In this document: in pieces, positions 3,020 to 50,493 of the stretch
How positions within the stretch are numbered: the stretch's first letter is position 1
How the letters are laid out: the number at the start of each line of letters is the position of its first letter
Assembly (NCBI GenBank): GCA_038087875.1
Contig: CM075989.1
Span: forward strand, 24,492,001-24,556,000
Direction: 5' to 3'
Source of the DNA: Malacoraja senta
Lineage: Eukaryota
Length of the DNA stretch: 64,000 bases
Translations under genes and position numbers: made by a program
Notes under the pieces: generated by a model
What the model was told of the DNA's origin: nothing
The model's database searches: none
Seen by the model: only the letters and a program-made list of their open reading frames with translations

Positions 3020-5781
3020 GTGTTTAAGCTGTTAAAAGATCATTGTTTTCTCATGATGTGAAATTTTAATAACAGACTTTGGTGATTTTTTGGGGGTTTC
3101 TTTTGCCTCGTGAAAATCGTGCAAAGAGGGGTGTTGGTTGATTAGGTTAGGGTTGGGGTCAGAACATAGTTGTTAGCATTTTAAATATGTTTATAATCAC
3201 GTAGATGCCTGCCAAGTTGTGCACACTATCAAAGGAAATTGAGTTTTATGATGAATAGGATATTTTAATATTTCTTTATGACAGATTGCAAGGCCATTTG
3301 TTCCATTGGATCTGTGTCCGCTGTCAGAGCGACCCCATTTGCCCATTACCCCTCTAACCTCTTCTCTCATATACCTGCAACCCTCGGATAATTCTTCAAT
3401 CAGACAACTACTCGAGGGGTAATGCACAGTAGCCAATTAACTATGGTCCAATACTTATTTTTGATGTGGGATGAAACCAGGGCACCCAGTGGAAACCCAC
3501 ATGGTCAAAAATAAAACGTGCTGGATTGTGGTAAAAATCTATCTTGTTCGCTGATGCTTTTAAGTGGAAGGTAGACAAAAATGCTGGAGAAACTGGAGGC
3601 AGCATCTATGGAGAGAAGGAATAGGCGACGTGTCGGGTTCGAGACCCTTCTTCAGACCTGACTCGAAACGTTGCCTATTCCTTCTGTCCATAAATGCAGC
3701 TTCACCCGCTGAGTTTCTCCAGCATTTTTGTCTACCTTCGATTTTTCCAGCATCTGCAGTTCTTTCTAAACATTTAAATGAAAGGGTCCTGCTTGCTGCT
3801 CATCTCAGTTTGCTTACAGGTTACCCTATATGTTGTGTTATTGGGCAAGTGTGTGAACAGGACATGGGGAACTAAGTGGGGCAAGGGCTGATGAGGACCG
3901 CTTTGACAATTGACATAAACCACAGAACTGTTTTAATGTTTCCATTTGGCCGTCTGCCAGTTGTCCCTTGATCTCTGCTTTGTTACACTAGCACTTTGCT
4001 ACTCAACCCAATGACCATGTATTGATTGCGTGATTATTTAATTATCTTGAATTGCCTCGTGTGCTCTTCCCCATATTTACAGCTTTGACATTTTTGTGCT
4101 TTATTTTGATTTCAGTTTGGGGCAAGATGTTTTTTTTAGTGTTGGTTTTCAGCAGAATAGGTAATTTCAACAATTAAAAGACTTATGTCAAGAGTTACAT
4201 CACCTTTCAGTCTCTACATATGCCAATATGTAGATCGTTTAAAACATGTTTCCCGTGCTGAAGACAGATATTTGCATCCCTGCACTCTATTCCTCCCACT
4301 ATCATTCTTGTCACAGAAATAAAAATAAAGTTTCAGTTGGTTAATCAGGCATCATAGGGCTTTTATATCAATAGTAACAGCACTTTGGTTTATTATTGTT
4401 TGCCATGCAAAACACTGCAAATAATTTTCAAAAATTGCTGGCAAAGTGGCAGCATTCTTGTTGCGAGTTTTATTGCGAACCATCTGACAAAGGGGTTTTC
4501 TTTGCTTGAGTCAGTGTTCACGTCACTCTCTCTCCACTCTTTTTGCCACCATTACACAACAGACCTACACATCACAAAGGGACTTGGTCATCACTTCATA
4601 TTTGCCTTTGGGGAGGTCTTTGTGGTATTCTGAAAGGGAACACTTACTGCAAGGATGTCATTTATCATCCGACTATTCGGGCAATTTTTTTTTCTTTCGT
4701 TAAAACAAAAGAATTCAAGCCCAAAATATATTCAATGTACATTTAGCTTTTGAGAGCTGAATTATTCACACAGTTCAATTTGTAGGTTCAATCTGAAGAA
4801 GGGTCTCGACCCAAAACCTCACCCATTGTGTTCTCCAGAGATTCTGCCTGTCCCACTGAGTTACTCCAGCTTTTTGTGTCTATCTTCAATTTGAAGGTTA
4901 CTGCTGAATGATTGGGATGTCGCAGCCTGTTGTTAAAAATAAATCATGCATTGCTTCCATATTTAATAAGAAACTTGCATTTATATTGTGTCTCTTGTTC
5001 CCTTTGCAGAAAGTTGCAAAGCATATTAGCTGAAGTGTAGGCATTATTGTAATCTGTAAAAATAGAACAATATTCATTAGGGAACAGACAATTGATCCTG
5101 AATTTCATCCATTGACGACCAATAAAAGCTGTAATAGTTTATGTAATTATCTGCAGTTTACACGCTAACCTGCAAAACCTTAGACTACTTTTCTTTATAA
5201 CATTGTCTCTAAAATTGAATGGAGTACTGTTTGCAAAATAATACTTTATATCTGATAATAAGTTTCTGTAAAGTTGGAACAAGAGCTCCAAGAGGTTGGA
5301 ATCATGTCTAGTCTTTCACTGACTACCTTGGTACGCGACAATAAAGTAAACTGAACTAAGCTAAGAGGAGGAATTAACTTTGTTAAACTGCTGGTGATTG
5401 AGTTCACTTATGTTTGGTACAACAGTGCTTGCAATGCTAGTGTTGAGCAACGGTATACAAAATTAAATGGTAAGTGATCATCAAAATATGCAGTACTGGG
5501 TTACTTTTAACATTCTTTTACTTTATTCGTTATTTTTGTTTAGCCAGTCTATTGGAAAGACTTATCTTAGGCATATCATATAATGTGGTATAATTAATGT
5601 GTAAATCTGTCTCATTTGAAAAATCACTGAAGCAATATATTTGTCGTGATAATCAATCGTCGTTACATTTTAGAATGTTTGTCCCCCCCCCCCAATTTAT
5701 ATTTCATAATGTTTACATTTATTATTATCGTAGGACAGGGATTTACATAACCGTACATCTTCATTTTTCATTCCTCTGAAG

Positions 5782-5953: not shown

Positions 5954-8437
5954 GTGCGTAATATGCTTGCTTTTCCATACTGGAGGATTGGCTCCCTGAT
6001 ATCCAAATGTTCTGTTTAAAGTGATTCAGAATGGATGCTGTGTTGGTGTAGTGCCTCTCAGTAATTTTTAATGTTTGAAACAGGATTGAGTTACCCTTTA
6101 TTGTAAAGTGCAGCAGGAGAGGATTAAAGGAGGAAAATCTTGATGCACAAAAGTACGATGAGGGCAAAAGCCCTCACAATATCGAAAAATGCTTCATGAG
6201 TGAGTGCCTGCAGGTTAATGGGCCTATTGATAGAGTCGTGGTTAAGGTTAATCTATTGACTTAGACTGGCCACGGATATGATGGGCTAAATGGCCTCCTC
6301 CATTGATTTTGAATCCTTGTGAAGCTTTCTAAGTGCAATGCATCACCTATTAGTTATTGTATCAATCCACATAAGCATGCCATGATAGCTCTATTAAATG
6401 TTGTTCTTGTAGAAATGGAGAAAAAAAATCTAAAACCACAAAACCCTTTCATTTTAGAAATTGCAATATGTTTTTCTTGAGATGCTCCATGTGCTTTCAT
6501 TAATGAATGTGCCAGATGTTTGAGGTTATGTTATAAGAAGCCAAACTTAAGGCTTTTTAATGTCATCTTAACATCTCAAAGTATTCTCTTCTCTAAACCT
6601 GCTCCAGTGTGTGGAAGTCTGTGAGGCACACAAGGAATTGGTCTGGGTACTCTGGCCTATTAGTGGATGATCAGTGGAATAGGGTGAAGGGACAGTTGGC
6701 CTTGTGTTCTTATGTTTCTTGTGCTCCTATGTTCTGGTAAGATACAACATATTCAGCAGAATAAACAAGGATTTATACATTGTCGAAACAGGCCCTTCAG
6801 ACCAATTTGCCCATGCCAACCAAGGTCTCTACCTGAACTAATCCCATTTGCCTGCATTTGGCCCATTTCCCACTAAATCTTTCCATGTGCTGTCCAAATG
6901 TCTTTTAGACGTTGTAATTGTAACATATCTTCAGGCAGGTGAGGCATATTATTAATTATATTATTGAACATGCATCTCGTTGCACAAGATTTTGTCCCAA
7001 ATACTTCTGCAAGTCGTTCCATAACTAAATTTATAATGCACGGATTTTTTCTAAAACGTACATTTCTGAAAACACAACTTTTGTTTCTCTATAAATAACA
7101 GTTAAAAGTGCACTTCCATTTGCTTCATGAGACATTTCTCATTTCGCTGCCACAATATCGACATGGAACAAAACAAATAATTCATGTAAGTAGTCGACCA
7201 TAAGACCAAACACAACAGCAATAGTCGTCTGTCAGTCAGATCAAGGCTGACAAAAATGCTGGAGAAACTCAGCGGGTGAGGCAGCATCTATGGAGCGAAG
7301 GAATATGTGATGTTTCGGTCATAGAAACATAGAAAATAGGTGCAGGAGGGGGCCATTCAGCCCTTCGAGCGAGCACCGCCATTCATTGTGATCATGGCTG
7401 ATCGTCCCCAATTAATAACCCGTGTCTGCCTTCTCCCCATATCCCTTGATACCACTAGCCCCTAGATCTTTATCTAACTCTCTCTTAAATCCATCCAGTG
7501 ATTTGCCTCCACTGCCCTCCGTGGCAGGGAATTCCACAAGTTCACAACTCTCTGGGTGAAAAACCTTTTTCTCACCTCAGTCTTAAATGGCCTCCCCTTT
7601 ATTCAGACTGAAGAAGGGTCTCGACCCGAAACGTCACCTATTCCTTCGCTCCATAGATGCTGCCTCAACCCGCTGAGTTTCTCCAGCATTTTTGTCTACC
7701 TTAGATTTTTCCAGCATCTGCAGTTCTTTCTTAAACAGTCATATCAAGGCTAATCATTTACCTCAGTAAAACCATACATGAACAACCCATTCTGAAGATA
7801 GACACAAAATGTTGGAGTAACTCAGCAGGACAGGCTTAAGAAGGGTCTCAACCTGAAACGCCACCAATTCCTTCTCAGCCTGTCCCGCTGAGTTACTCCA
7901 GCATTTTGTGTCTATCTTCGTTTTAAACCAGTATCTGCATTTTGCTTCCTATACAAACAACCATTCCTCATGAATTCCTAAATATTCAAAATTCTATGAA
8001 CCTCTGCCTGAAAGTATTCAGCGCCTGAACTTTCCACAGCCCTATTCACACTTCCCTATTCTCCTGGTGAGGGGAATTTGTTCTTGTCTCTGTAACAGCA
8101 GAATTTTAGCTAAAGCTACTACTCTTGGATTTGGTCATCGCAGGGTTCCTCTATGAGCAGGCATTGAAGATGGGCCGAATGGTGGCCTCCTGTGTTGGCA
8201 GAGTAGACTCGATGGGCAGAGTGGCCTAATTCTGCTCCTATATCTTGTGTTGCAAAAAATATAGAATTAATATATGTTATTTGACAGCTGTAAGATTATG
8301 TAATGTGATTTCATTAACACAGTATGAATTTATATTTATCATTTATCAATAGATGTATTTTATCCCGAATGTATGCAATGGTCTGCTTTACAGAAGGTGG
8401 ATTGCTCATTTGTGTTCATTGATATTTTTCTGTTCAG

Positions 8438-8570
8438 TTGCCTGAAAATTATTCGCCTGATGATGACCTATTGATTCCACACCTGAGTTCTTGTACGGTG
8501 CAGGACTTGTATCTGCTAATGGGTAAAGAATTGGAAGATGTACAAGAAGTACCTGTTGGCAATGTGCTAG
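8438..8570 (+). CDS. EFL1: EFL1 internal coding exon (LPENY...VQDLYLLMGKELEDVQEVPVGNVL|G)
   Basis: Acceptor ttctgttcag| and donor G|gtaaga. Contains the LYLLMG.ELE...EVP.GNV motif. 133 nt, and the phase is compatible with the next exon. Confidence 0.96.
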
Positions 8571-10327
8571 GTAAGATTTTATTATTAAGTATCTGCTGTG
8601 ATATTGTTTTTTTACAGGATTTGCAAAAGGATGGCAAACTTTTTCCTTATATAATTTCAGTCTAGGTTTGTCATAAGTTGTAGGAGAAGAATTCGGCCAT
8701 TCGGCCCATCATGTCTACTCCACCATTAAACCCCATTCTTTCCCTCTCAACCCCATTCTCCTGTAGTCTTCCCTAACCCCTAACGCCCTCATTAATCTAG
8801 AATCTATCAATCTCCACCTTAAAAATATCCATTGACTTGGTCACCACAGCCGCCTGTGGCAATGAATTCCACAGATTCACCATCCTCTGACTCAAGACAT
8901 TCCTCCTCATCTCTTTTCTAAAGGTACATGGCCTCTGGTCCTAGACTCTCCCACTGGTGGAAATGTCCTCTCCACATCCACTCTATATGCAGGCCTTTGT
9001 TTCCAGAGTGTGGACCTTGCCCCCACGAAATAAAAACTTAAATGCTGTAGATATGGGAAAACTGCAATAAGAGTGTAAGTCATCAGTGGTATATAGCAGG
9101 TCAGACAGCAACTGTGTTGAGTTAAGTAGACCAAGCAACAGTCAATGGGCACTCGGAAACAAAGGTACATTTGATGTTTGAGAGATTGAGTCCCGCACTT
9201 GCACCTGTTCCACTTGGCTAAACACCAGTGGCTCTGTTACAACTGCTAGCATTGTCAAGGAGTTCCAGCCCAACCTCTAACACGATAGAGAAATCTTGGA
9301 CAGTAGAGCATTTGTTCTGGGGTGGAACCTGAACACAACATTTTTGACTCGGGGCAAGACCCTCGGCTGACACAAGGAACCAAACAGAATTCCGGTTGAG
9401 TTAAGCAACTGAGTCTTTCCCTACACCACTGGAGGATTTTCCAATTACGAAAAAACACTTGCATTTGTTTAAACCAAGTCCATTTTTTTCAATAACTTCA
9501 TGATTTCTTGACTGTTTCTTTCATGTACTACCAAAAGCAACAGACAAGTTACTTTATAACACTAGAAACACGACATAATCACAAAAATGCTACAGTCAGG
9601 GCTCTTCCAATAATAAAGTGCTATCCTACAAGTTTAAACAGTTGGTCTGTAAGGCGATCATGCGAATGTTTCACAAAGAAAAGTGCAGCCAAGGAAGACA
9701 AGAGACATTTATTGTCACATGCACCAATTGGTACCGTGAAATTTGTGGTCACCATACAGCCATACGAATGCCTGGATGTTTATGGTCCCTCCATAGATCA
9801 TGGGGGACCCCTTCCACCCCAGCAACAGACTGTTCCAGCTGCTATGGTCAGGCAAACGCCTCCGTTGCCATGCTGTGAAAACAGAGGAAGGGAAGGAGTT
9901 TCTTCCCAGAGGCCATTAGGACTGTAAACTCCTATCTCACCAGGGACTAACTTACTGTACCAATTTACTGTTGTGTGGTGTCTTTTTAAATAGCTGTTTC
10001 TTCCTTCTTTTTTTCTCCCACAAATATGTAATTCCATTCTGTTTTGTAGTCTTTTTGCACAATCCGCAAGCATTGCCACCTTTCATTTCACTACACATCT
10101 CGTATGCGTATGTGACAAATAGACTTGACGACCTCAGAGAATACCTTCTCTGCCTGGTCCCAGGGATAAACAGGTTTTTCTGGATTTTGCATCCTGGAAT
10201 CAGAACTCCTTATTCAATTAAAAAGGTTCACACTGCATATGTCTGAATATAAAGGCAAGCTACAATTGATTGTTTTCTTCAAAGTGCCTGTAATTTAAAA
10301 GTTCAGTAACATTAAATTTGTCTCTTA

Positions 10328-17800: not shown

Positions 17801-18636
17801 AGGACATTCATGTTGCTCTTTGAAAGAGAAACCAAAGTTCGACTTGCAACCTCTATTGATATGGTAATGTTTCTGATAACGATGCTTCTTCTCTGTACTA
17901 TTTGTCACCATGTTAAAAAGTTATTCTTACACGTGCTTTGCATTCCTTTTATATTTGTTCTTCCTTATGCTACCGTACCGCACTAGCCACCAGCAACAGC
18001 TCCACTTACTCTGAATTCACCAAACTGTGCATTTACCTTTTGACTCAAGGCAGTCTACAAACAAACGGCTGAGCAAATAGCACACATCGCTAATAACGGA
18101 GCGCCAAATGCTTTAACTCTACCAGTTCAGGAAAATAGCTCATGAAGTTAATAACCTTCACTAGTACAACTAAATAGCTCATTATTATCGATCTTGAATG
18201 AAGGTTTTACAGTTCTGTTAGTTACTGAATAATTTCTAGTAATTTCAGATACTTTGGTCATTTTTTGATGAGCAGGCCTGAGAAATTGTTCTTCAAGGAA
18301 ACCTAAAAGGATGTGTAAGAAGGAACTGCAGATTCTGGTTTACACCAAAGATAGACTGGAGTAACTCAAGAATAGTTGACGTTTCGGGTCAAGGAAGGAT
18401 CTGAAACGTCACCTATTCCTTTTCTCCAGAGATGCTGCCTGACCAGCTGAGTTACTCCAGTTTTTTGTGTCTACAACCTAAAATAATGTGTTGCAGCAGC
18501 CACTGCAACAACAACATAATCTTCATCTTTGGAAGGTGTGCCAACACTGAAGATAAAGGCAAAGAGGTTGTTAGAGAAGACAACAAAAACTTGGACAAAG
18601 AGATAGATTTAAACAAAAATACTTTAAAGAATACTT

Positions 18637-19709
18637 TACTGCCTCCCAACTCCACCCTGGCCCCACTACCTCCCAACTCCACCCTGGCCCCACTACCTCC
18701 CAACTCCACCCTGGCCCCACTACCTCCCAACTCCACCCTGGCCCTACTGCCTCCCAACTCCACTCTGGCCCTACTACCTCCCAACTCCACCCTGGCCCTA
18801 CTGCCTCCCAACTCCACCCTGTCCCTATTGCCTCCCAACTCCACCCTGGCCCTACTGCCTCCCAACTCCACCCTGGCCCTACTACCTCCCAACTCCACCC
18901 TGGCCCTACTACCTTCCAACTCCACCCTGGCCCTACTACCTCCCAACTCCACCCTGGCCCTACTGCCTCCCAACTCCACCCTGGCCCTACTGCCTCCCAA
19001 CTCCACCCTGGCCCTACTACCTCCCAACTCCACCCTGGCCCTACTGCCTCCCAACTCCACCCTGTCCATATTGCCTCCCAACTCCACCCTGGCCCTACTG
19101 CCTCCCAACTCCACCCTGGCCCTACTACCTCCCAACTCCACCCTGGCCCTACTACCTCCCAACTCCACCCTGGCCCTACTACCTCCCAACTCCACCCTGG
19201 CCCTACTGCCTCCCAACTCCACCCTGGCCCCACTACCTCCCAACTCCACCCTGGCCCTACTATCTCCCAACTCCACCCTGGCCCTCCTGCCTCCCAACTC
19301 CACCCTGGCCCTACTACCTCCCAACTCCACCCTGGCCCTACTATCTCCCAACTCCACCCTGGCCCTATTGCCTCCCAACTCCACCCTGGCCCTACTGCCT
19401 CCCAACTCCACCCTGGCCCTACTGCCTCCCAACTCCACCCTGGCCCTATTGCCTCCCAACTCCACCCTGGCCCTACTGCCTCCCAACTCCACCCTGGCCC
19501 TATTGCCTCCCAACTCCACCCTGGCCCTACTGCCTCCCAACTCCACCCTGGCCCTACTGCCTCCCAACTCCACCCTGGCCCTATTGCCTCCCAACTCCAC
19601 CCTGGCCCTACTGCCTCCCAACTCCACCCTGGCCCTATTGCCTCCCAACTCCACCCTGGCCCTACTGTCTCCCAACTCCACCCTGGCCCTACTGCCTCCC
19701 AACTCCACC
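18637..19709. repeat. 27-bp minisatellite, about 40 copies (cctcccaactccaccctggccctactg)
   Basis: Direct tandem periodicity. It explains the PPNSTLALL, VELGGSRAR and GPGWSWEAV pseudo-ORFs. Confidence 0.98.
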
Positions 19710-23472: not shown

Positions 23473-26400
23473 TGGTAGTTTAATTTAGTTTAGTTTAGAG
23501 ATACAGTGTGGTAATAGGCCCTTCGACCCAACAGGTTCACGCTGACCATCGATCACCTGTACTAGGTCTATGTTATCCCACTTTTACATCCAGTCCATGT
23601 GGCCTTGGAACAGTTTACCAAAGGCCAATCAATCTACAAACCTGCGTGTGCTTGAAATATGGGAAGAAACTGGAGCGCCTGCAGAAACGTCACACTGTCA
23701 CAGGGAGAACTTACAAACTCTGTACAGACAGCACCCATAGTCAGGATCAAACTCATGTCTCTGGCGCTGTAAGGCAGCAACTCTATCGCTGCCCCACTAG
23801 GCTGCCCCAGTAAACTAAGGTCAACAGAATTGGAGTATTTTTCAAGCATTTCCCTTTAAAAAAATATTTTATCTTAATGTTTGGGGTAAATAATTGTACA
23901 ATGGTGTATTTAATCATGCAAAGTTAAGTGTACAAACTTGAAGGCTAATGAAATGGAGGAGGACTAACAATGTTTGTGAGGGGCTTACATTTTGGTCAGA
24001 AGAATGAGGAGATGGAAAACAAACTGAAGGCACAGTTTGAAAATGAGTAAAATACAGAGGTCTGGGATACAGGTTGATGCTTCATTGAGAGTGGCAGGCG
24101 GGTTGAGAAAGTAATTGAAAAGCCGAACAGTATCCTATGCTCTGTTTATAAACCATCGGGGTAGCAGTGTCATGATGAAGCATTGTAAAATATCAGAAGG
24201 TAGACAAAAATGCTGGAGAAACTCAGCGGGTGCAGCAGCATCTATGGAGCGAAGGAAATAGGGAACGTTTCGGGCCAAAACCCTTCTTCGGATATTGTAA
24301 AATATCATCTTGGCCACAAATGGATTATTGTGAACAGTTCCGGGTGCCACTCTTTTGAGAATGTTTGCACACTTGTTTTCTTTTAGATGTGTATAAGATC
24401 TTCAGTGGAATAGATAGGATGTATACACAGGTTGGTTTTTTTTAAAGGGTAGGGGAATCAAGAACCAAAGGACATAGTTTTAAGGTGAGAGGGGAAAGAT
24501 TTAATAGGAATCTGAGGGGCATCTTTTTCATACAGAGGGTGGTGGGTGTATGGAACGAGCTGCCAGAGGAAGTAGTTGAGGCAGGAACTATAACAACATT
24601 TAGGAGACAAGGTTTAGAGGGATATGGGCAAAATGCAGACAGGTGGGACTAGTGTAGTTGGGGCACCTTGGTCAGCATGGGCAAGTTGGGCCAAAGGATC
24701 TGTTTCCATAGTATATGATGCTATATCTCTATGACATTGGAGAGAATGCGGAAGAGATTTATGCTTCCAAGCATGAAAGACCTTCGCAATATAAATATAC
24801 TAAAGACATTGAGGTTATTCTATTTGGAAAATTTACAAACTAATCTGCAATCGTTAATAGTATCGATAGAGTAGGTAAATAGAAACATTCCATTGGCAGA
24901 AAGTTTCAACAACCATGGGGCATGGAGTGAAGGTGATTGGCAAACAAATCCGAGGTTGCATGAAGAATATAGTTTTGCATCTTGGGTGGGTCAGGTCTGC
25001 AGGTGTAGTAATGGATGCAGCTTTAATCCTGGCATTCGAAAGGAAGCTCGGCAAGTATTCCACAATACGTGGTTTGCAATGGTGTGGAGACGGGTATGGG
25101 ACTGCAACAACTGGTTGCCAGCTCTTGTGTATGGCCCACATGGCCACCTGTGATTGAGTCATACTGTAAACTTCTAGAATTGTCAGTTGACGTACGTACG
25201 TCTCTGATAGTATTATTTATATATTTTATAAGTCGTCATCATTTATGAATGGTGTTAAACAAAGTGCATGAGTAACTGAATTAAACAATATATTGATTTA
25301 ACCATTAATCATTTACACAAACGGCAGAGTTTTTAAACAGCTAGATTTTGGTTTGCTTTCTAGATAACGGATTAATAAAGTTTATTTAGAAATAATGCCA
25401 CAGTATGCATGAAACTTCCTGAGTATATGTTTCTCCCTCAGCATGGTATTTTTCTCAGTAAATGCCCATTTATTTGAGCTTGATGCTAAATAGTCTGATA
25501 CAGTTGCCTACTTGTTTTGTTTTCCTCCTTGCCATGAGATTAGTCTGCATTTAAAGCAAAAGATCATTCTCATTGTGTGCAACAAAACAAAACTAGAATT
25601 ATAGTGAGATGTCAGACGAGCTCTTTGTAGGGAGGATCTTCATCAGCAGTCAGTACGTTGTGCCAAAGGCAGTGGATTGCATGAACTATTTATATGCTAG
25701 CTGAGTGGTTTCCCAGGACACCATTAACTATTGACAGTGCCTCCTGCTGTGAAAAACTAAAACTTCCACAGAGGCATCAGGCATTCATCACTATGCAAAC
25801 ATTCGATGGACACATTTGGCTTCTTGCATTGACAACATTGTTAAGGCAATGATCTGATTTTAGTTTAGTTCATTTTAGAGATACAGTGTGGAAAGAGGCC
25901 CTTCGGCCCACCGAGTCCACACCGACCAGCGATCCCTGCACGTTAACACTATCCTACGCACACAAGGAACAATTTACAAATTACCTACAAATGTGTACGT
26001 CTTGCGGGAGGAAACCAGAGATCCCGTGGAAAACCCACGCAGGTCATGGGGAGAATGTACAAACTCCGTACAGATAAGCACCCATAGTCGGGTTCGAGCC
26101 CGGGTCTCTGGCACCATAAGGCAGCAATTCTACCGCTGCGCCACCGTGTTTCTGATGACCAGAACTGTCAGGTGTTGCAACTTGTTCTCTCTGTTCCAAA
26201 GAAAGGCATGTTGTATCCTGAAACTATGAACATATTTGTTAAGGTTTTTTTTTTTACCTACAGGAACATAGTCTAATCCTGATAATTTAAGGGTTTAGAA
26301 AAAAAGTTTAATATGTCTTAGATACATTTTTTGAAAGCAATTCAAATTATGTGACTGTGTAGAATTAGTTATTAAAGCAAACAAATCATTTTAATTGAAC

Positions 26401-27030
26401 TGGCTAAATCAAACAAGTAAAAACATTGGGTCACTGTGTTAAGATATTTGAAAGCGATTTTGATTGAAAAAAAGCAAAACAAAAGTAAATGTTAATCAAG
26501 GACTGATCAAGAAAACGCCAGCTGGTTGACAAATAGATCATATCTTTAAGTAGCAAGCATCTGCTTTCAATTAACATCAATTACAGGTACTTTCTATATT
26601 TTCTGCTGGACATTGGAGTAAATACTGTGAAAATCTTTCATCAAACGATTCTTGTAGCAGAAATAAAAAGAGAGATGCTCTCATTGCAGTTCAGCTTATG
26701 AAAACGAGAGCTTTATGTTTCAGTCAAACAGCCCACAGAGTTTGCTGTCAACTATATAGAAGCAGAGCAATGTGTACAATAGGATGTAGATACAAGGAAC
26801 TGCAGATGTTGGTTTATAAAAAAAAACAAAGCGCTGGAGTAACTCAGCTGGGCAGTCAGCGTATCTGGAATACGTGGATAGGCACAAAATGCTGGAGTAA
26901 CTCAGCAGGACAGGCAGCGTCTCTGGAGAGAAGGAATGGGTGAGACATTTCAGGTCAAGACGTGGATAGGCGATGTTTCCAGTCAAGATCCTTCTTCAGA
27001 CTAATTGTAGTAATGGTGGAGAAAGGCGGA

Positions 27031-27166
27031 TCTTCTTGCGTGTGGCGTGCACAGCCTAAAGTTGTAGGACAACTTGTTCTATTTGATCTTACTTGATTGT
27101 GCACGCCAGGTTGATTGCATTCGTCGAAACAGGGCGGACCACGTGAAGGTTGCAATCTCCCACCCC
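27031..27166 (-). mobile_element. Short non-autonomous retroelement with a ribozyme head, a 3' stem-loop and an AAGAAGA tail; likely Vingi/Ingi-dependent
   Basis: Flanked by the direct repeat gagaaaggYgg (27019-27029 and 27167-27177). The 3' half has the stem TGGCGTGCACA/TGTGCACGCCA. It ends CACACGCAAGAAGA. No Pol III A/B boxes are apparent. Confidence 0.8.
27113..27166 (-). ncRNA. Minimal HDV/CPEB3-like self-cleaving ribozyme (54 nt)
   Basis: The minus strand reads GGGGUGG-GA-GAUUGCA-ACC-UUCACGU-GGU-CCGCCCU-GUUUCGA-CGAA-UGCAAUC. This gives P1 (7 bp, starting with a G.U wobble), P2 (7 bp), P3 (3 bp), L3 UUCACGU, a minimal P4 and J4/2 CGAA. Confidence 0.88.
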
Positions 27167-28547
27167 GAGAAAGGTGGGTTACCCTGTGGGACAAGAACCA
27201 CCAACCAGTGGTTCTGGGACAATCAGTGGTCTGGGACACAGCTATAGGATGACTTGCACCAAAGCCTGGTGATTTTCTGACGCAGTAACTCTTGGGCTGA
27301 GGCAGCTGAAGGCATCTTGTACATTTTGATGTTTCAGACTACTTTGATTGCTATTTTTTCTGCTGGAGAAGGTTATTTCCCCTCATCCATGTCGGCTTGA
27401 GAGTGACAAACCATTTCTTTAAGGAATAAAAAGGTGCAAAGTGTACTAGAAGGAGAGGCAGAGCTGTAGTGCTGGAAATATTAAAGAAAAACAGAATTGT
27501 ACAAATTCACAATCGGGCTTTCTGCAGATGAAATATCTCCATCCACAACTGCAGTGTTAACCCAATGTGTAGGAAGGAAATGCAGATGCTGGTTTACACC
27601 GAAGATGGACACAAAATACTGGAGTAACTCAGTGGGACAGTCAGTGTGTCTGGATAGAAGGTATGAGTGACGTTTTGGGTTGAGACCTTTCTTCAGACAA
27701 GACACTTCTTCACCACAGTCTGAAGAAGGGTCTTGACCCAAAACGTCACCCATTCCCTCTATCCAGAGATGTTGCCTGTTCTGCTGAGTTACTGCAGCAC
27801 TTTATGTCTATCTGCTGTGTTAACCCATCTCTTCATTTCAGTTTTTGATGAGGGCATGGTGGGAGTTTTGAAATTACTAATATTCACTTTCTTATTTATT
27901 ACTTAGATACGGGTTTACTTTTCACAATGGGGATATGGCTACATTGCAAAGGTTTCTCAGCCCTTTTCAGTTTAAGTAATGTAACTTCATCCTTACATGG
28001 AGCACATGGGTAGGAAATGTTGAGTAAACCTCACACCATATCAGATTTAGCCTCTTCCAGTCGATTGGCAGCTGAGGCTTGTGGGTGAAACAACATTTGA
28101 CATGTGGGCTCCTTTTTAAGAGAGTTAGCAAGAGTTCAGGGACAGCATGTTCTGGTAAAAGTGAAAGGATAAGATGGGCAAGATTAAGGAATCTGGGAAG
28201 TCAACGTTTATTGAAGGTTTAAAAGAAAAGAAGTGTATGACAGGTCTGTGCCCCAACAATTAAGCGAGTCCTTTGAGAATATGAAAGGTGAAGGAGAGTA
28301 GGTAAGAAGGAAATCAGGAGTGTAAAATGAGGTGGTGACATATTCTTGGCGGGTTAGTTTAAGGGGAATCTTGACATTCTATGAGTATATTAGGAGCAAG
28401 AATGTAGCTAAAGAAAGGACTTTTAAGGCTGAATATGGCTGAATACTTCTTATTGGTTGTCACCAAGGAGAAGGACCTGGAAGAAGCTGCTCTGTAGCAC
28501 AACATTGGATTGACTAGTTCACTCTTAAGGGAGCAACTAACATTTCT

Positions 28548-49180: not shown

Positions 49181-49287
49181 GGTTGAGTCAGAAGGATGCA
49201 TATAACTGTTCATGTTACTGCAATAATCAGAATATTCTGCACACTTATTCATGTTTAACTCCTTTGGTTTTTATTTGTCGACTTTAG

Positions 49288-49419
49288 GTATTGGTGGCTT
49301 AGAAGATCACGTCTTAAAGTCTGCCACGTTGTCAACCTCTCCGTTATGCCCTCCTTTTACGCCCTTGAACCTTGAAGCAACTCCTATTGTACGAGTCGCA
49401 GTGGAACCCAAACATCCAA
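49288..49419 (+). CDS. EFL1: EFL1 internal coding exon ([45 protein letters not shown])
   Basis: Acceptor actttag| and donor A|gtatgt. 132 nt. [10 protein letters not shown] marks the start of EF-2-family domain III. Confidence 0.97.
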
Positions 49420-50493
49420 GTATGTGGGTAACATTCTGTATTTGGCAATACTCAAGCTGCTGTTTATTCCCACTGTTTAATATATATGTTTGGAGTTCAT
49501 CCAAAACTCTCCTGCCATGGCACCAAGATTACACCAAGCCCGTTTCCCTCATTACTCCTGTACTTGTTGATCTGCACCAGATTTTTGTCCAACAATGATT
49601 TGAATTTTAAACCCCAACTTTGGTTGAGCGCTTTTTAAACTGTAAACTCCTGCCTTGCATTTCTACTTTCTATCCACTCTTGTCTCCTGCCCAACCCAAA
49701 TTTTCATCGCCCATCAGCTGCCTGGTACTTTATTCTAAATCCTTCAAAGTACATAGAACAGTCTGAAGAAGGGTTTCGGCCCGAAACGTTGCCTATTTCC
49801 TTCGCTCTATAGATGCTGATGGACCCGCTGAGTTTCTCCAGCACTTTTGTCTACCTTCGATTTTCCAGCATCTGCAGTTCCTTCTTAAACACATAGAACA
49901 GTACAGCACAGGAACAGGCCCTTTAGCTCACAATGTCTGTGCCAAACATGATGCCAAGACCTACTCTTATCTTCCTGCACATAATTAATAAACCTCCACT
50001 CCCTGCATATCCATGTGCCTCTTTAAAAGTCTTGGAAATGCCATCATATCTGCCTCCACTCACCCCCGGCATCACATTCCAGGCACTCACCACCCTCTGT
50101 GTACAAAAAAATCTTGCCTCGCCACCATCTCCTTTAAACTTTGCCCCTCTCATCTTAAAGCTATGCTCTCTAGTATTTGATATTTCCATCCAGGGAGAAA
50201 GGTTCTGACTGTCTACCCTATCTATGTCTCTCATAATTTAATATACTTCTCTCGGGTCTCTCTGCAACTTCCAGCATTCCAGAGAAAACAATCCAAGTCT
50301 GTCTAGCCTCCCCCTGTCTCTAATACCCCATAATCCAGGCATCAACCCTACCTTTCCTGATTTTAATATATTTCATTAAACCTTTCCCTTTGGCAGTATT
50401 TTTGGGTTATTCGTCCTAATGTCTCTGAAGGTTTTGTTGTCAAAATGCTATTTGATGACCCTTTTGGGAAGCAGCTTGTGGTATATTTCATTC

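What the first reader, a model, noticed from the sequence alone, without database searches (positions are those of the whole stretch)
27031..27166. Ribozyme-headed mini-retroelement with a complete minimal HDV/CPEB3-like ribozyme at its exact 5' end
Seen: minus strand 27166 to 27113 reads GGGGUGG GA GAUUGCA ACC UUCACGU GGU CCGCCCU GUUUCGA CGAA UGCAAUC. Every element of the nested double pseudoknot is present in order: P1 GGGGUGG/CCGCCCU opening with G1.U, P2 GAUUGCA/UGCAAUC, P3 ACC/GGU, L3 UUCACGU, and the catalytic C in CGAA. P4 is shrunk to a UUCG mini-loop. G1 directly abuts the target-site duplication (gagaaaggYgg), so the element starts exactly at the predicted cleavage site. The remaining ~80 nt form a long stem-loop and an AAGAAGA tail. 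Known: the mammalian CPEB3 ribozyme has, as I recall it, the same L3 (UUCACGU), GU after P1 and CGAA. HDV-like ribozymes process the 5' ends of R2, RTE and Ingi/L1Tc retrotransposons. Inference: this is a SINE-like family that cuts itself out of host read-through transcripts instead of using a Pol III promoter. At 54 nt it would be a very compact natural HDV-like ribozyme. It is antisense to EFL1, so it would not cut that pre-mRNA. I cannot tell whether the family is already catalogued.
Basis: partly seen in the sequence, partly recalled or inferred. Interest (0 to 1): 0.92.

Follow-up and report, generated by a model that had tools for sequence, protein, structure and literature searches.

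The report
Ribozyme-headed mini retroelement in a skate
A 136-base jumping element, present in well over a thousand near-identical copies in a skate genome, begins exactly at the predicted cut site of a very small HDV/CPEB3-type self-cutting RNA fold that it inherited from a parent LINE, and sister elements in the same genome look so much like the mammalian CPEB3 ribozyme that they may show where that ribozyme came from.

Summary
Minus strand 27166..27113 reads as written and folds as a P4-less HDV-like double pseudoknot. The 136-nt element (27166..27031) is a young retroelement family with at least 1,516 seed-exact copies. Copies start at G1, end in (AAG)n and carry 10-15 nt target-site duplications that abut G1.

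The fold is not chance. A generic descriptor hits random sequence about 5e-7 per position. A covariance model built only from other ribozyme families of this genome finds it end to end (27.5 bits, E about 6e-5). Across these families, 18 of 26 pairs show compensatory changes.

The element is not a classic SINE. It is an internal-deletion derivative of a roughly 3.1-kb APE-RT LINE (RTE-like layout) that carries the same ribozyme at its own 5' end. It shares that LINE's last codons, short 3' UTR and tail.

Self-cleavage is inferred, not shown; no RNA data were usable.

The kind is known: HDV-like ribozymes head RTE, R2 and L1Tc elements and their deletion derivatives. Three things look new: the vertebrate host, the P4-less form (so far assigned to phages), and the CPEB3 link. 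In this genome, 39 of 60 listed matches pass Rfam's cut-off for the 'mammalian' CPEB3 ribozyme, up to 64 bits.

The parts
27113..27166 (-). 54-nt P4-less HDV/CPEB3-like ribozyme. G1 is at 27166, which is the predicted cleavage site and the first base of the element.
   Evidence: model R1: 27.5 bits, E 6.1e-5, end to end.
27160..27166 (-). P1 5' strand GGGGUGG. It pairs with 27131-27137.
   Evidence: the MFE fold contains P1; helix 1 is 94% paired and 3 of its 7 pairs show double changes.
27151..27157 (-). P2 5' strand GAUUGCA. It pairs with 27113-27119 (pseudoknot).
   Evidence: helix 2 is 92.9% paired and 6 of its 7 pairs are compensatory. P2 is not part of the Rfam or R1 models.
27138..27150 (-). 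P3 (ACC/GGU) enclosing L3 UUCACGU. C22 (27145) pairs with G37 (27130) as P1.1.
   Evidence: the L3 letters T20, T21, C22, C24 and T26 and the C22-G37 pair are invariant in 8 of 8 rows.
27131..27137 (-). P1 3' strand CCGCCCU.
   Evidence: the only common variant here is G32>A, which turns U.G into U-A.
27124..27128 (-). 5-nt linker UUCGA in place of P4.
   Evidence: the alignments delete P4. G42>A is tolerated.
27120..27123 (-). J4/2 CGAA. C44 (27123) sits at the position of the catalytic cytosine.
   Evidence: no variant of 5% or more at C44, A46 or A47, while G45 varies to U or A.
27113..27119 (-). P2 3' strand UGCAAUC.
27065..27112 (-). Variable middle region, derived from the parent LINE's 5' UTR. 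It holds the 5' arm of the long stem (27098-27108).
   Evidence: it differs between subfamilies and matches the L082 5' UTR. for the stem.
27031..27064 (-). Module shared with the parent LINE's 3' end: its last codons, the TAG stop, a short 3' UTR (3' stem arm at 27043-27053) and the start of the (AAG)n tail.
27167..27177 (-). 5' copy of the target-site duplication.
27019..27029 (-). 3' copy of the target-site duplication (10 of 11 identical).
8432..8572 (+). EFL1 exon upstream of the host intron.
   Evidence: tblastn with P0001, 94% identity.
49278..49421 (+). EFL1 exon downstream of the host intron.

Best explanation
The element is a non-autonomous, internally deleted derivative of a roughly 3.1-kb APE-RT LINE with an RTE-like layout. 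It keeps two working ends of its parent.

The 5' end is a 54-nt P4-less HDV-like ribozyme. When the element is transcribed as part of a longer host or read-through transcript, the ribozyme is expected to fold co-transcriptionally and cut just 5' of G1. That would release an RNA whose first base is G1, with a 5'-OH.

The 3' end (last LINE codons, short 3' UTR stem and (AAG)n tail) is expected to be recognised by the LINE's reverse transcriptase. Target-primed reverse transcription to the RNA's 5' end then gives full-length copies that start at G1 and are flanked by 10-15 nt target-site duplications.

Shown here: the anatomy, the sharp shared ends, the kinship with the LINE, and the comparative support for the fold. 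Inferred: catalysis, read-through transcription and mobilisation in trans.
For: Family and ends
- all 39 non-self matches scored are 97-99% identical. They begin at query positions 7-17 (19 of them exactly at G1, position 15) and end at 149-152 (the element's end is 150).
- the body seed has 1,516 exact matches against 0 for the control pattern; only 27 such places lack the ribozyme's usual 3' end just upstream, and all 27 look like small indels.
- of 44 copies with an intact core in the DNA I fetched, 38 start GGGGTGG, and 27 have a 10-15 nt target-site duplication (at most 1 mismatch) that abuts G1 and follows the tail.
- in contigs of 4 runs from 4 other organism labels, the element again stops at 27166 and 27031, next to unrelated flanks.

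Fold
- the descriptor hits the real window once and hits shuffles 18 times in 299.
- the MFE fold of the 54 nt is exactly P1 plus P3, which leaves both P2 strands free.
- the only two Rfam matches are HDV-F-prausnitzii (27113-27166, whole model) and CPEB3.
- a model built from 12 ribozymes of other families, with this one left out, finds 27113-27166 end to end (27.5 bits, E 6.1e-5). It is the only match with E below 0.7 in the 64 kb.
- 91.7% of cells pair, against 76.2% in shuffles (0 of 500 reach it). 18 of 26 pairs have changes on both sides, against 0-5 in slid controls.
- within the ribozyme the only variants at 5% or more are G32>A (keeps the pair), G42>A (linker) and G45>U/A (the variable J4/2 position). 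The 82-nt body has at least 12 variable sites.

Parent LINE
- L082 carries the same ribozyme, then a 5' UTR that matches the element subfamilies, then an ATG.
- An APE domain follows (Exo_endo_phos_2, 34.6 bits), and related copies carry RT.
- the ORF's stop codon lies inside the 3' module that the element shares.

Precedent (passages read): PMC6765202 and PMC3774820 on 5' HDV-like ribozymes of RTE, R2, R4 and L1Tc; PMC10879173 on active P4-less forms.
Against: - No cleavage assay and no RNA 5'-end data exist for this element. All runs found were contigs of unrecorded library type.
- The element scores below the Rfam cut-offs: 14.4 against 44 bits and 11 against 35 bits. It was not found at all in a 2.5-kb scan.
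- I wrote the descriptor after seeing the candidate. I also chose the structure and the rows used.
- Most copies are 97-100% identical, so within-family variation says little.
- The three tolerated variants are all G positions of CpG dinucleotides.
- This particular copy is antisense in its host intron, and nothing shows it is transcribed.
- The single near-full-length LINE copy I read has a 50-nt insertion inside its P1-J1/2 region and is decayed.
Confidence: 0.8

Rival explanations
1. The 5' 54 nt keep an HDV-like fold but no longer cleave. In this reading the fold serves as a binding site for the LINE protein, as a translation or stability element, or (at the DNA level) as an internal promoter, and transcription initiation sets the 5' end at G1.
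For: L1Tc's first 77 nt are both a promoter and a ribozyme (PMC3383444, abstract seen in the listing). R2 protein binds its 5' pseudoknot and an IRES-like role has been proposed (PMC6765202, passages). P4 is missing and the Rfam scores are low. No RNA data exist.
Against: The catalytic-position C44, the L3 core and the P1.1 pair show no common variants. Upstream flanks are unrelated, so any promoter would have to lie inside a 54-nt ribozyme-shaped sequence. P4-less forms are active in vitro elsewhere (PMC10879173, passages).
Confidence: 0.13
2. It is an ordinary Pol III SINE, and its head only happens to fit an HDV-like descriptor.
For: It is short, abundant, nearly always full length and has a LINE-type tail.
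Against: There is no tRNA, 5S or 7SL match in 26000-28500 at E up to 10. The head is shared with the parent LINE's own 5' end. It belongs by covariance model and covariation to a ribozyme family. The chance rate is about 5e-7 per position.
Confidence: 0.03
3. It is a chance resemblance in a repeat with no RNA-level function at its 5' end.
For: The loose descriptor would hit a 1.9-Gb genome on the order of a thousand times by chance (extrapolated).
Against: The hit coincides with the element's first base. The ribozyme module is the same across element subfamilies whose middle regions differ. There is compensatory change across families.
Confidence: 0.02

Closest known systems
HDV-like ribozymes at the 5' ends of non-LTR retrotransposons (RTE, R2, R4/Dong, Baggins, L1Tc)
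   Same: The nested double-pseudoknot ribozyme is the first thing in the element. The predicted cut falls at the 5' junction. The elements lack an evident promoter of their own and often sit in introns. (PMC6765202 and PMC3774820, passages read.)
   Different: The host is a cartilaginous fish. The ribozyme lacks P4. Its core letters are those of the mammalian CPEB3 ribozyme. RTE-clade membership of the parent LINE rests on its layout only and was not tested by phylogeny. I could not read Ruminski et al. 2011 (not held), so I cannot say which vertebrate cases it lists.
Non-autonomous deletion derivatives that keep the parent's ribozyme: R2 SIDEs and trypanosome NARTc
   Same: The parent LINE's 5' ribozyme is joined directly to the parent's 3' recognition end, and the element is mobilised in trans (PMC3414825 and PMC3383444, abstracts seen in the listing).
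   Different: Insertion here is genome-wide with 10-15 nt target-site duplications rather than rDNA-specific. The element is far smaller (136 nt) and far more abundant (at least 1,516 copies).
Mammalian CPEB3 ribozyme (Rfam RF00622)
   Same: L3 UUCACGU, CCCUGU and CGAAU are identical to the Rfam consensus, and the G1.U start and topology are the same. Sister families in this genome score 35-64 bits against a cut-off of 35.
   Different: This element scores only 11 bits, has no P4, has different P1, P2 and P3 letters, is multi-copy, and is not in a CPEB gene. The CPEB ZZ exons lie on other contigs.
Minimal P4-less HDV-like ribozymes (drz-Mtgn, theta ribozymes)
   Same: P4 is replaced by a few nucleotides and the size is similar. 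Such forms self-cleave in vitro (PMC10879173, passages).
   Different: Those were traced to gut bacteriophages, often next to tRNA genes. This one heads a vertebrate retrotransposon. No sequence kinship was tested.
Hammerhead- or twister-bearing short retroelements (schistosome SINE-like elements, retrozymes)
   Same: A small self-cleaving ribozyme sits within a short non-autonomous retroelement (PMC6765202 passages; PMC8501958 and PMC7229834 abstracts in listings).
   Different: The ribozyme class differs. Those elements work through tandem or circular RNA forms, whereas copies here are dispersed single units.

Membership tests
HDV-like self-cleaving ribozymes | Nested double pseudoknot: P1, P2, P3 and P1.1 in the canonical order. 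| tested here: met
   All helices are present, and 91.7% of cells pair across 8 related sequences.
HDV-like self-cleaving ribozymes | Helices supported by compensatory change. | tested here: met
   18 of 26 pairs have changes on both sides, 0 of 500 shuffles reach this, and slid controls give 0-5. I chose the rows and the structure.
HDV-like self-cleaving ribozymes | Conserved core: a G at +1 opening P1, a C in L3 pairing with the G after P1, and a catalytic C opening J4/2. | tested here: met
   G1.U36, C22-G37 and C44 are in place; no variant of 5% or more at these sites.
HDV-like self-cleaving ribozymes | Scores above the curated Rfam cut-off of an HDV-like model. | tested here: not met
   RF02682 gives 14.4 against 44 bits and RF00622 gives 11 against 35 bits. 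Both models count on a P4 that is absent, and neither models P2.
HDV-like self-cleaving ribozymes | Divalent-metal-dependent self-scission 5' of G1, leaving a 5'-OH. | not testable with these tools
   This needs in vitro transcription and end-mapping.
Mammalian CPEB3 ribozyme (RF00622) | Single-copy and located in an intron of CPEB3. | tested here: not met
   The element is multi-copy. This copy is in EFL1. The CPEB ZZ exons lie on C2259, C2128, C15 and C17.
Mammalian CPEB3 ribozyme (RF00622) | Passes the family's gathering score. | tested here: not met
   This element scores 11 bits. Other retroelement ribozymes of the same genome do pass: 39 of 60 listed matches.
Minimal (P4-less) HDV-like ribozymes | The P4 domain is replaced by a short linker while the rest of the fold is kept. 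| tested here: met
   A second P4-less family is seen in L089, L090 and L060.
RTE-clade LINE (parent element) | One ORF with an N-terminal AP endonuclease and RT, about 3.2 kb in length, very short UTRs and a simple-repeat tail. | tested here: inconclusive
   APE, RT, stop codon about 30 nt from the (AAG)n tail, and a span of about 3.1 kb in C1:194.04 Mb. All copies read are decayed, and no RT phylogeny was made.
SINE in the strict sense | A head with an internal Pol III promoter derived from tRNA, 5S or 7SL. | tested here: not met
   no such Rfam match. The head is the LINE's own ribozyme.
SIDE-like internal-deletion derivative of a LINE | Both ends are collinear with the parent LINE's 5' and 3' ends and the coding region is missing. 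| tested here: met
   Element subfamilies carry different lengths of the L082 5' UTR, joined to the LINE's last codons.

The most novel reading that the evidence does not exclude
The mammalian CPEB3 ribozyme is a domesticated 5' ribozyme of this retrotransposon lineage.

A skate genome holds several LINE and mini-element families whose 5'-terminal ribozymes pass Rfam's CPEB3 model. One decayed family (L088, L091, L092, L098, L101) shares with the Rfam consensus not only the catalytic core but also the letters of P1 (GGGGGCC), most of P2 and the functionally unconstrained P4 stem (CAGAUUCU...GAAUCUG).

These families would be the outgroups that a 2021 study said do not exist. The P4-less 54-nt form in the window would be the most reduced living member of the same lineage, and the first minimal HDV-like ribozyme with a clear eukaryotic job.
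Probability: 0.45. Interest if true: 0.85.

Novelty: new variant of a known kind. Interest (0 to 1): 0.66.

Why it matters
HDV-like ribozymes that trim retrotransposon 5' ends are established, so the mechanism here is not new. Three points are worth a specialist's time.

1. This is a very young and very abundant vertebrate family, 97-100% identical over at least 1,516 copies. 5' processing by a ribozyme could be tested on natural, probably still active material.

2. It places P4-less 'minimal' HDV-like ribozymes, so far traced to gut phages, at the head of a eukaryotic retroelement. Full-size sisters in the same genome show how P4 was lost.

3. The same genome carries retroelement ribozymes that pass the curated model of the mammalian CPEB3 ribozyme. 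A 2021 paper states that this RNA had not been found outside mammals (PMC8233481, passage read). That makes the origin of a ribozyme tied to memory phenotypes directly testable by comparative genomics.

Tried and rejected
- **RNA evidence.** No RNA holder was listed. The four runs laid are contigs of unrecorded library type, so they say nothing about expression, RNA 5' ends or cleavage.
- **Ribozyme followed by something other than the element body (65 hits).** These were element subfamilies, internal deletions and one chimera, not the LINE. That chimera, L049/L061, is a ribozyme joined to an antisense tRNA-SINE piece, with an unrelated L1-like APE/RT element with poly-A further downstream.
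- One search was mis-set by one base, so it served only as a copy count. One search is the corrected version.
- **Same P3-L3 with a different P2.** The search gave 32 hits, all damaged copies of this family.
- **LINE copies L079, L080 and L081.** These were 5'-truncated or rearranged. L081 has head-to-head ribozyme fragments at its break.
- **L088, which looks most like true CPEB3.** I asked whether it is an orthologue inside a CPEB gene. No CPEB ZZ exon lies on its contig, and its P1 5' strand is missing. I rejected the idea.
- **Protein atlas.** It returned only generic RVT_1 clusters and was no help with LINE clade.
- **Earlier findings of this scan.** Nothing was returned.
- **Papers.** Ruminski 2011 and Webb 2009 are not held. 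A search for 'CPEB3-like' with 'ribozyme' and one for 'CPEB3_ribozyme' found no report of such elements. The shark/skate search was badly posed and uninformative. A claim of 'not in print' therefore rests only and the passages read, and supplements were not examined.

Full report
**What is there**

Numbering from G1 = 27166:
- P1 is 1-7 with 30-36. It opens with G1.U36 and holds one U.G pair.
- P2 is 10-16 with 48-54, seven Watson-Crick pairs.
- P3 is 17-19 with 27-29, and L3 is UUCACGU.
- G37 can pair with C22 (P1.1).
- A 5-nt linker stands where P4 would be.
- J4/2 reads CGAA, with C44 at the position of the catalytic cytosine.

A nested-only fold of the 54 nt returns exactly P1 plus P3 and leaves both P2 strands free. 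The remaining 82 nt form a long stem-loop (z -3.24, 0 of 200 shuffles as stable) and end in AAGAAGA. An 11-nt target-site duplication (10 of 11 identical) flanks the element, and its 5' copy touches G1.

The window's EFL1 exons lie on the + strand. The element sits antisense in the 40.7-kb intron between the exons at 8432-8572 and 49278-49421. By the names sources attach to the best EFL1 matches, the genome is a skate: 95% identity to a thorny-skate protein, 91% to another skate, about 85% to other rays and about 80% to sharks.

**It is a large, young retroelement family with a razor-sharp 5' end**

- All 39 non-self matches scored in the window's own 1.94-Gb assembly are 97-99% identical. They start within a few bases of G1 (19 exactly at it; the rest extend or fall short by chance-matching flank bases) and end at the element's last base.
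- A 25-base seed from the body occurs 1,516 times, against 0 for the reversed control (a mis-set pattern that served as a count).
- Only 27 such places lack the ribozyme's usual 3' end just upstream, and all 27 look like small indels. 5' truncation, the rule for LINEs, is therefore almost absent.
- Of 44 copies with an intact core in the DNA I fetched, 38 begin GGGGTGG. In 27 of them a 10-15 nt duplication (at most one mismatch) abuts G1 and follows an (AAG)n tail.
- In contigs of four public runs carrying four other organism labels, the element again ends at 27166 and 27031 against unrelated flanks.

**The fold is not chance and belongs to a ribozyme family**

A generic HDV-like descriptor was used: 7-bp P1 starting with G, P2 of at least 5 bp, 3-bp P3, L3 of 7-8 nt with its C, a G after P1, 3-60 nt in place of P4, and C-N-R-A. 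I wrote it from general knowledge after seeing the candidate. It hits the real window once, at 27166 minus. It hits 299 dinucleotide shuffles 18 times, about 4.7e-7 per position. That rate is not rare genome-wide, but it is very unlikely to fall on the first base of a retroelement.

Of 4,227 Rfam families, only two touch the 76-nt stretch, and both are HDV-like. HDV-F-prausnitzii spans exactly 27113-27166 over the whole model (14.4 bits). CPEB3 scores 11 bits. Both are far below their cut-offs, and a 2.5-kb scan found neither. These models expect P4 and cannot represent P2.

The stronger test came from the genome itself. Searching it with RF00622 uncovered other ribozyme families (see the CPEB3 section below). 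A covariance model built from 12 of those, with the window's element left out, finds 27113-27166 end to end at 27.5 bits, E about 6e-5. It is the only match below E 0.7 in the 64 kb.

I then aligned eight sequences from five or six families and counted pairs:
- The double pseudoknot is 91.7% paired, against 76.2% in shuffles (0 of 500 reach it).
- 18 of 26 pairs show changes on both sides, against 0-5 when partners are slid.
- P2, which no search model used, has compensatory changes in 6 of 7 pairs.

I chose the rows and wrote the structure, so this count leans my way.

Across the four other organisms' copies, the only ribozyme variants at 5% or more are these:
- G32>A, which turns U.G into U-A.
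- G42>A, in the linker.
- G45>U/A, the second position of J4/2. Rfam's F. prausnitzii consensus has U at this position.

The 82-nt body shows at least 12 variable sites plus indels. All three ribozyme sites are G positions of CpG dinucleotides. The CpG inside L3 and the C positions of those same dinucleotides do not vary at that level, which fits filtering in source copies better than plain decay.

**Where it comes from**

Copies whose middle region differs showed that only two modules are constant: the ribozyme and the last 34 nt or so.

The 3' module is the end of a LINE. In L076, L078, L080 and L081 an ORF runs into it and stops at the TAG inside CAACTT-TAG-G, about 30 nt before the (AAG)n tail. 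That LINE is abundant and old, at 74-100% amino-acid identity over 150 listed matches with 3,937 candidates. It carries RT and is mostly 5'-truncated.

One long copy, L082, reaches the 5' end. It has the same ribozyme, interrupted after GGGGTGGG by a 50-nt fragment of a tRNA-type SINE. It carries the CCACCC and CUAA variants, which are also seen in L079 and L081. After the ribozyme comes a leader that matches the mini-element subfamilies, then an ATG, then an AP-endonuclease domain.

The window's element is therefore an internal-deletion derivative: 5' ribozyme plus part of the 5' UTR, joined to the last codons, 3' UTR and tail. The LINE's layout (one APE-RT ORF, about 3.1 kb, tiny UTRs, simple-repeat tail) is RTE-like. 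I did not test clade by phylogeny.

**How it most likely works**

- Shown: the anatomy, the shared exact ends, the parentage, and the comparative support for the fold.
- Inferred: the element has no promoter of its own and no Pol III-type head. It would be transcribed within longer RNAs, the ribozyme would cut 5' of G1, and the LINE's protein would recognise the shared 3' end and copy the RNA to its 5'-OH end. That would explain why nearly every copy is full length and starts at G1.
- The window's own copy is antisense in its intron and need not be a source copy.

**Against what is known**

HDV-like ribozymes at the 5' junction are described for R2, R4, L1Tc, Baggins and RTE elements. A review states that some non-autonomous SINEs use them too (PMC6765202 and PMC3774820, passages read). 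R2 SIDEs and NARTc are deletion derivatives that keep the ribozyme (abstracts only). P4-less 'minimal' forms self-cleave in vitro but were traced to gut phages (PMC10879173, passages). So this is a new variant of a known kind.

**The CPEB3 link**

RF00622 is titled 'Mammalian CPEB3 ribozyme'. It matched the skate genome above its cut-off at 39 of 60 listed places, up to 64.2 bits, full length. None of 14 control genomes was over the cut-off, and the candidate count of 102,231 is rough. A full Rfam scan of nine such loci returned only this family.

- *A LINE family.* One group (L083-L086) is the first 73 nt of another LINE. Flanks differ up to the GGGG, and an ORF with an APE N-terminus follows about 30 nt later.
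- *A second mini-element.* Another group (L089, L090, L060) is a second P4-less mini-element with its own target-site duplications.
- *A decayed family.* This group (L088, L091, L092, L098, L101) shares with the Rfam consensus the P1 and P4 stem letters as well as the core.

[quoted passage not shown] My searches found no report of these elements. I could not read the key 2009-2011 papers or any supplements, and Dfam/Repbase cannot be consulted here. L088 is not in a CPEB gene. I hold the domestication reading at about 0.45.

Noticed in passing
G000, many contigs; loci L083-L110: Rfam's 'Mammalian CPEB3 ribozyme' model matches this skate genome above its cut-off at 39 of 60 listed places, up to 64.2 bits. 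The matches fall into several retroelement families whose flanks diverge right at the ribozyme's first G.
   Followed up: partly
L060:1221-1400; L089; L090; L103-L107: A second ribozyme-headed mini-element family of about 190 nt. It has a P4-less ribozyme with J4/2 CCAA, a GATAAGAAG-type tail and 11-12 nt target-site duplications that abut its first G. It starts one base later in the P1 register than the window's element.
   Followed up: partly
window 4442-4465 and 4513-4526 (+): Two weak partial matches to the ribozyme model, covering the P3-L3 core (E 0.7-0.9). They are probably remains of decayed copies, in sense orientation within the EFL1 intron.
   Followed up: no
L061:59-6750 (G000:C5:52393258 onward): A ribozyme head is joined after AAC to the antisense 3' part of an abundant tRNA-type SINE (at least 2,575 candidates). 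An L1-like element with ORF1, APE-RT ORF2 and poly-A follows. This is probably a template-switch or nested-insertion chimera.
   Followed up: partly
L081:2770-2860: At the broken 5' end of a LINE copy, two ribozyme fragments lie head to head, and one is fused directly to the LINE interior. This looks like a rearranged or twin-primed insertion.
   Followed up: no
window 18502-19600: A tandem array of a 27-nt unit, about 40 copies at 93-97% identity.
   Followed up: no
window 27565-27839 and about 20 other places in the window: An abundant hairpin-forming repeat (families D2-D12, inverted pair I15). It draws weak miRNA-precursor Rfam matches at 27664-27752, far below cut-off.
   Followed up: no
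G000:C20:6844480-6860550; C6:67237182 and 67242719 (L023/L024): Element copies recur at 3.1-kb spacing on C20 (4 copies), and two copies 5.5 kb apart on C6 have the same flanks. These look like local segmental or tandem duplications that carry the element.
   Followed up: no
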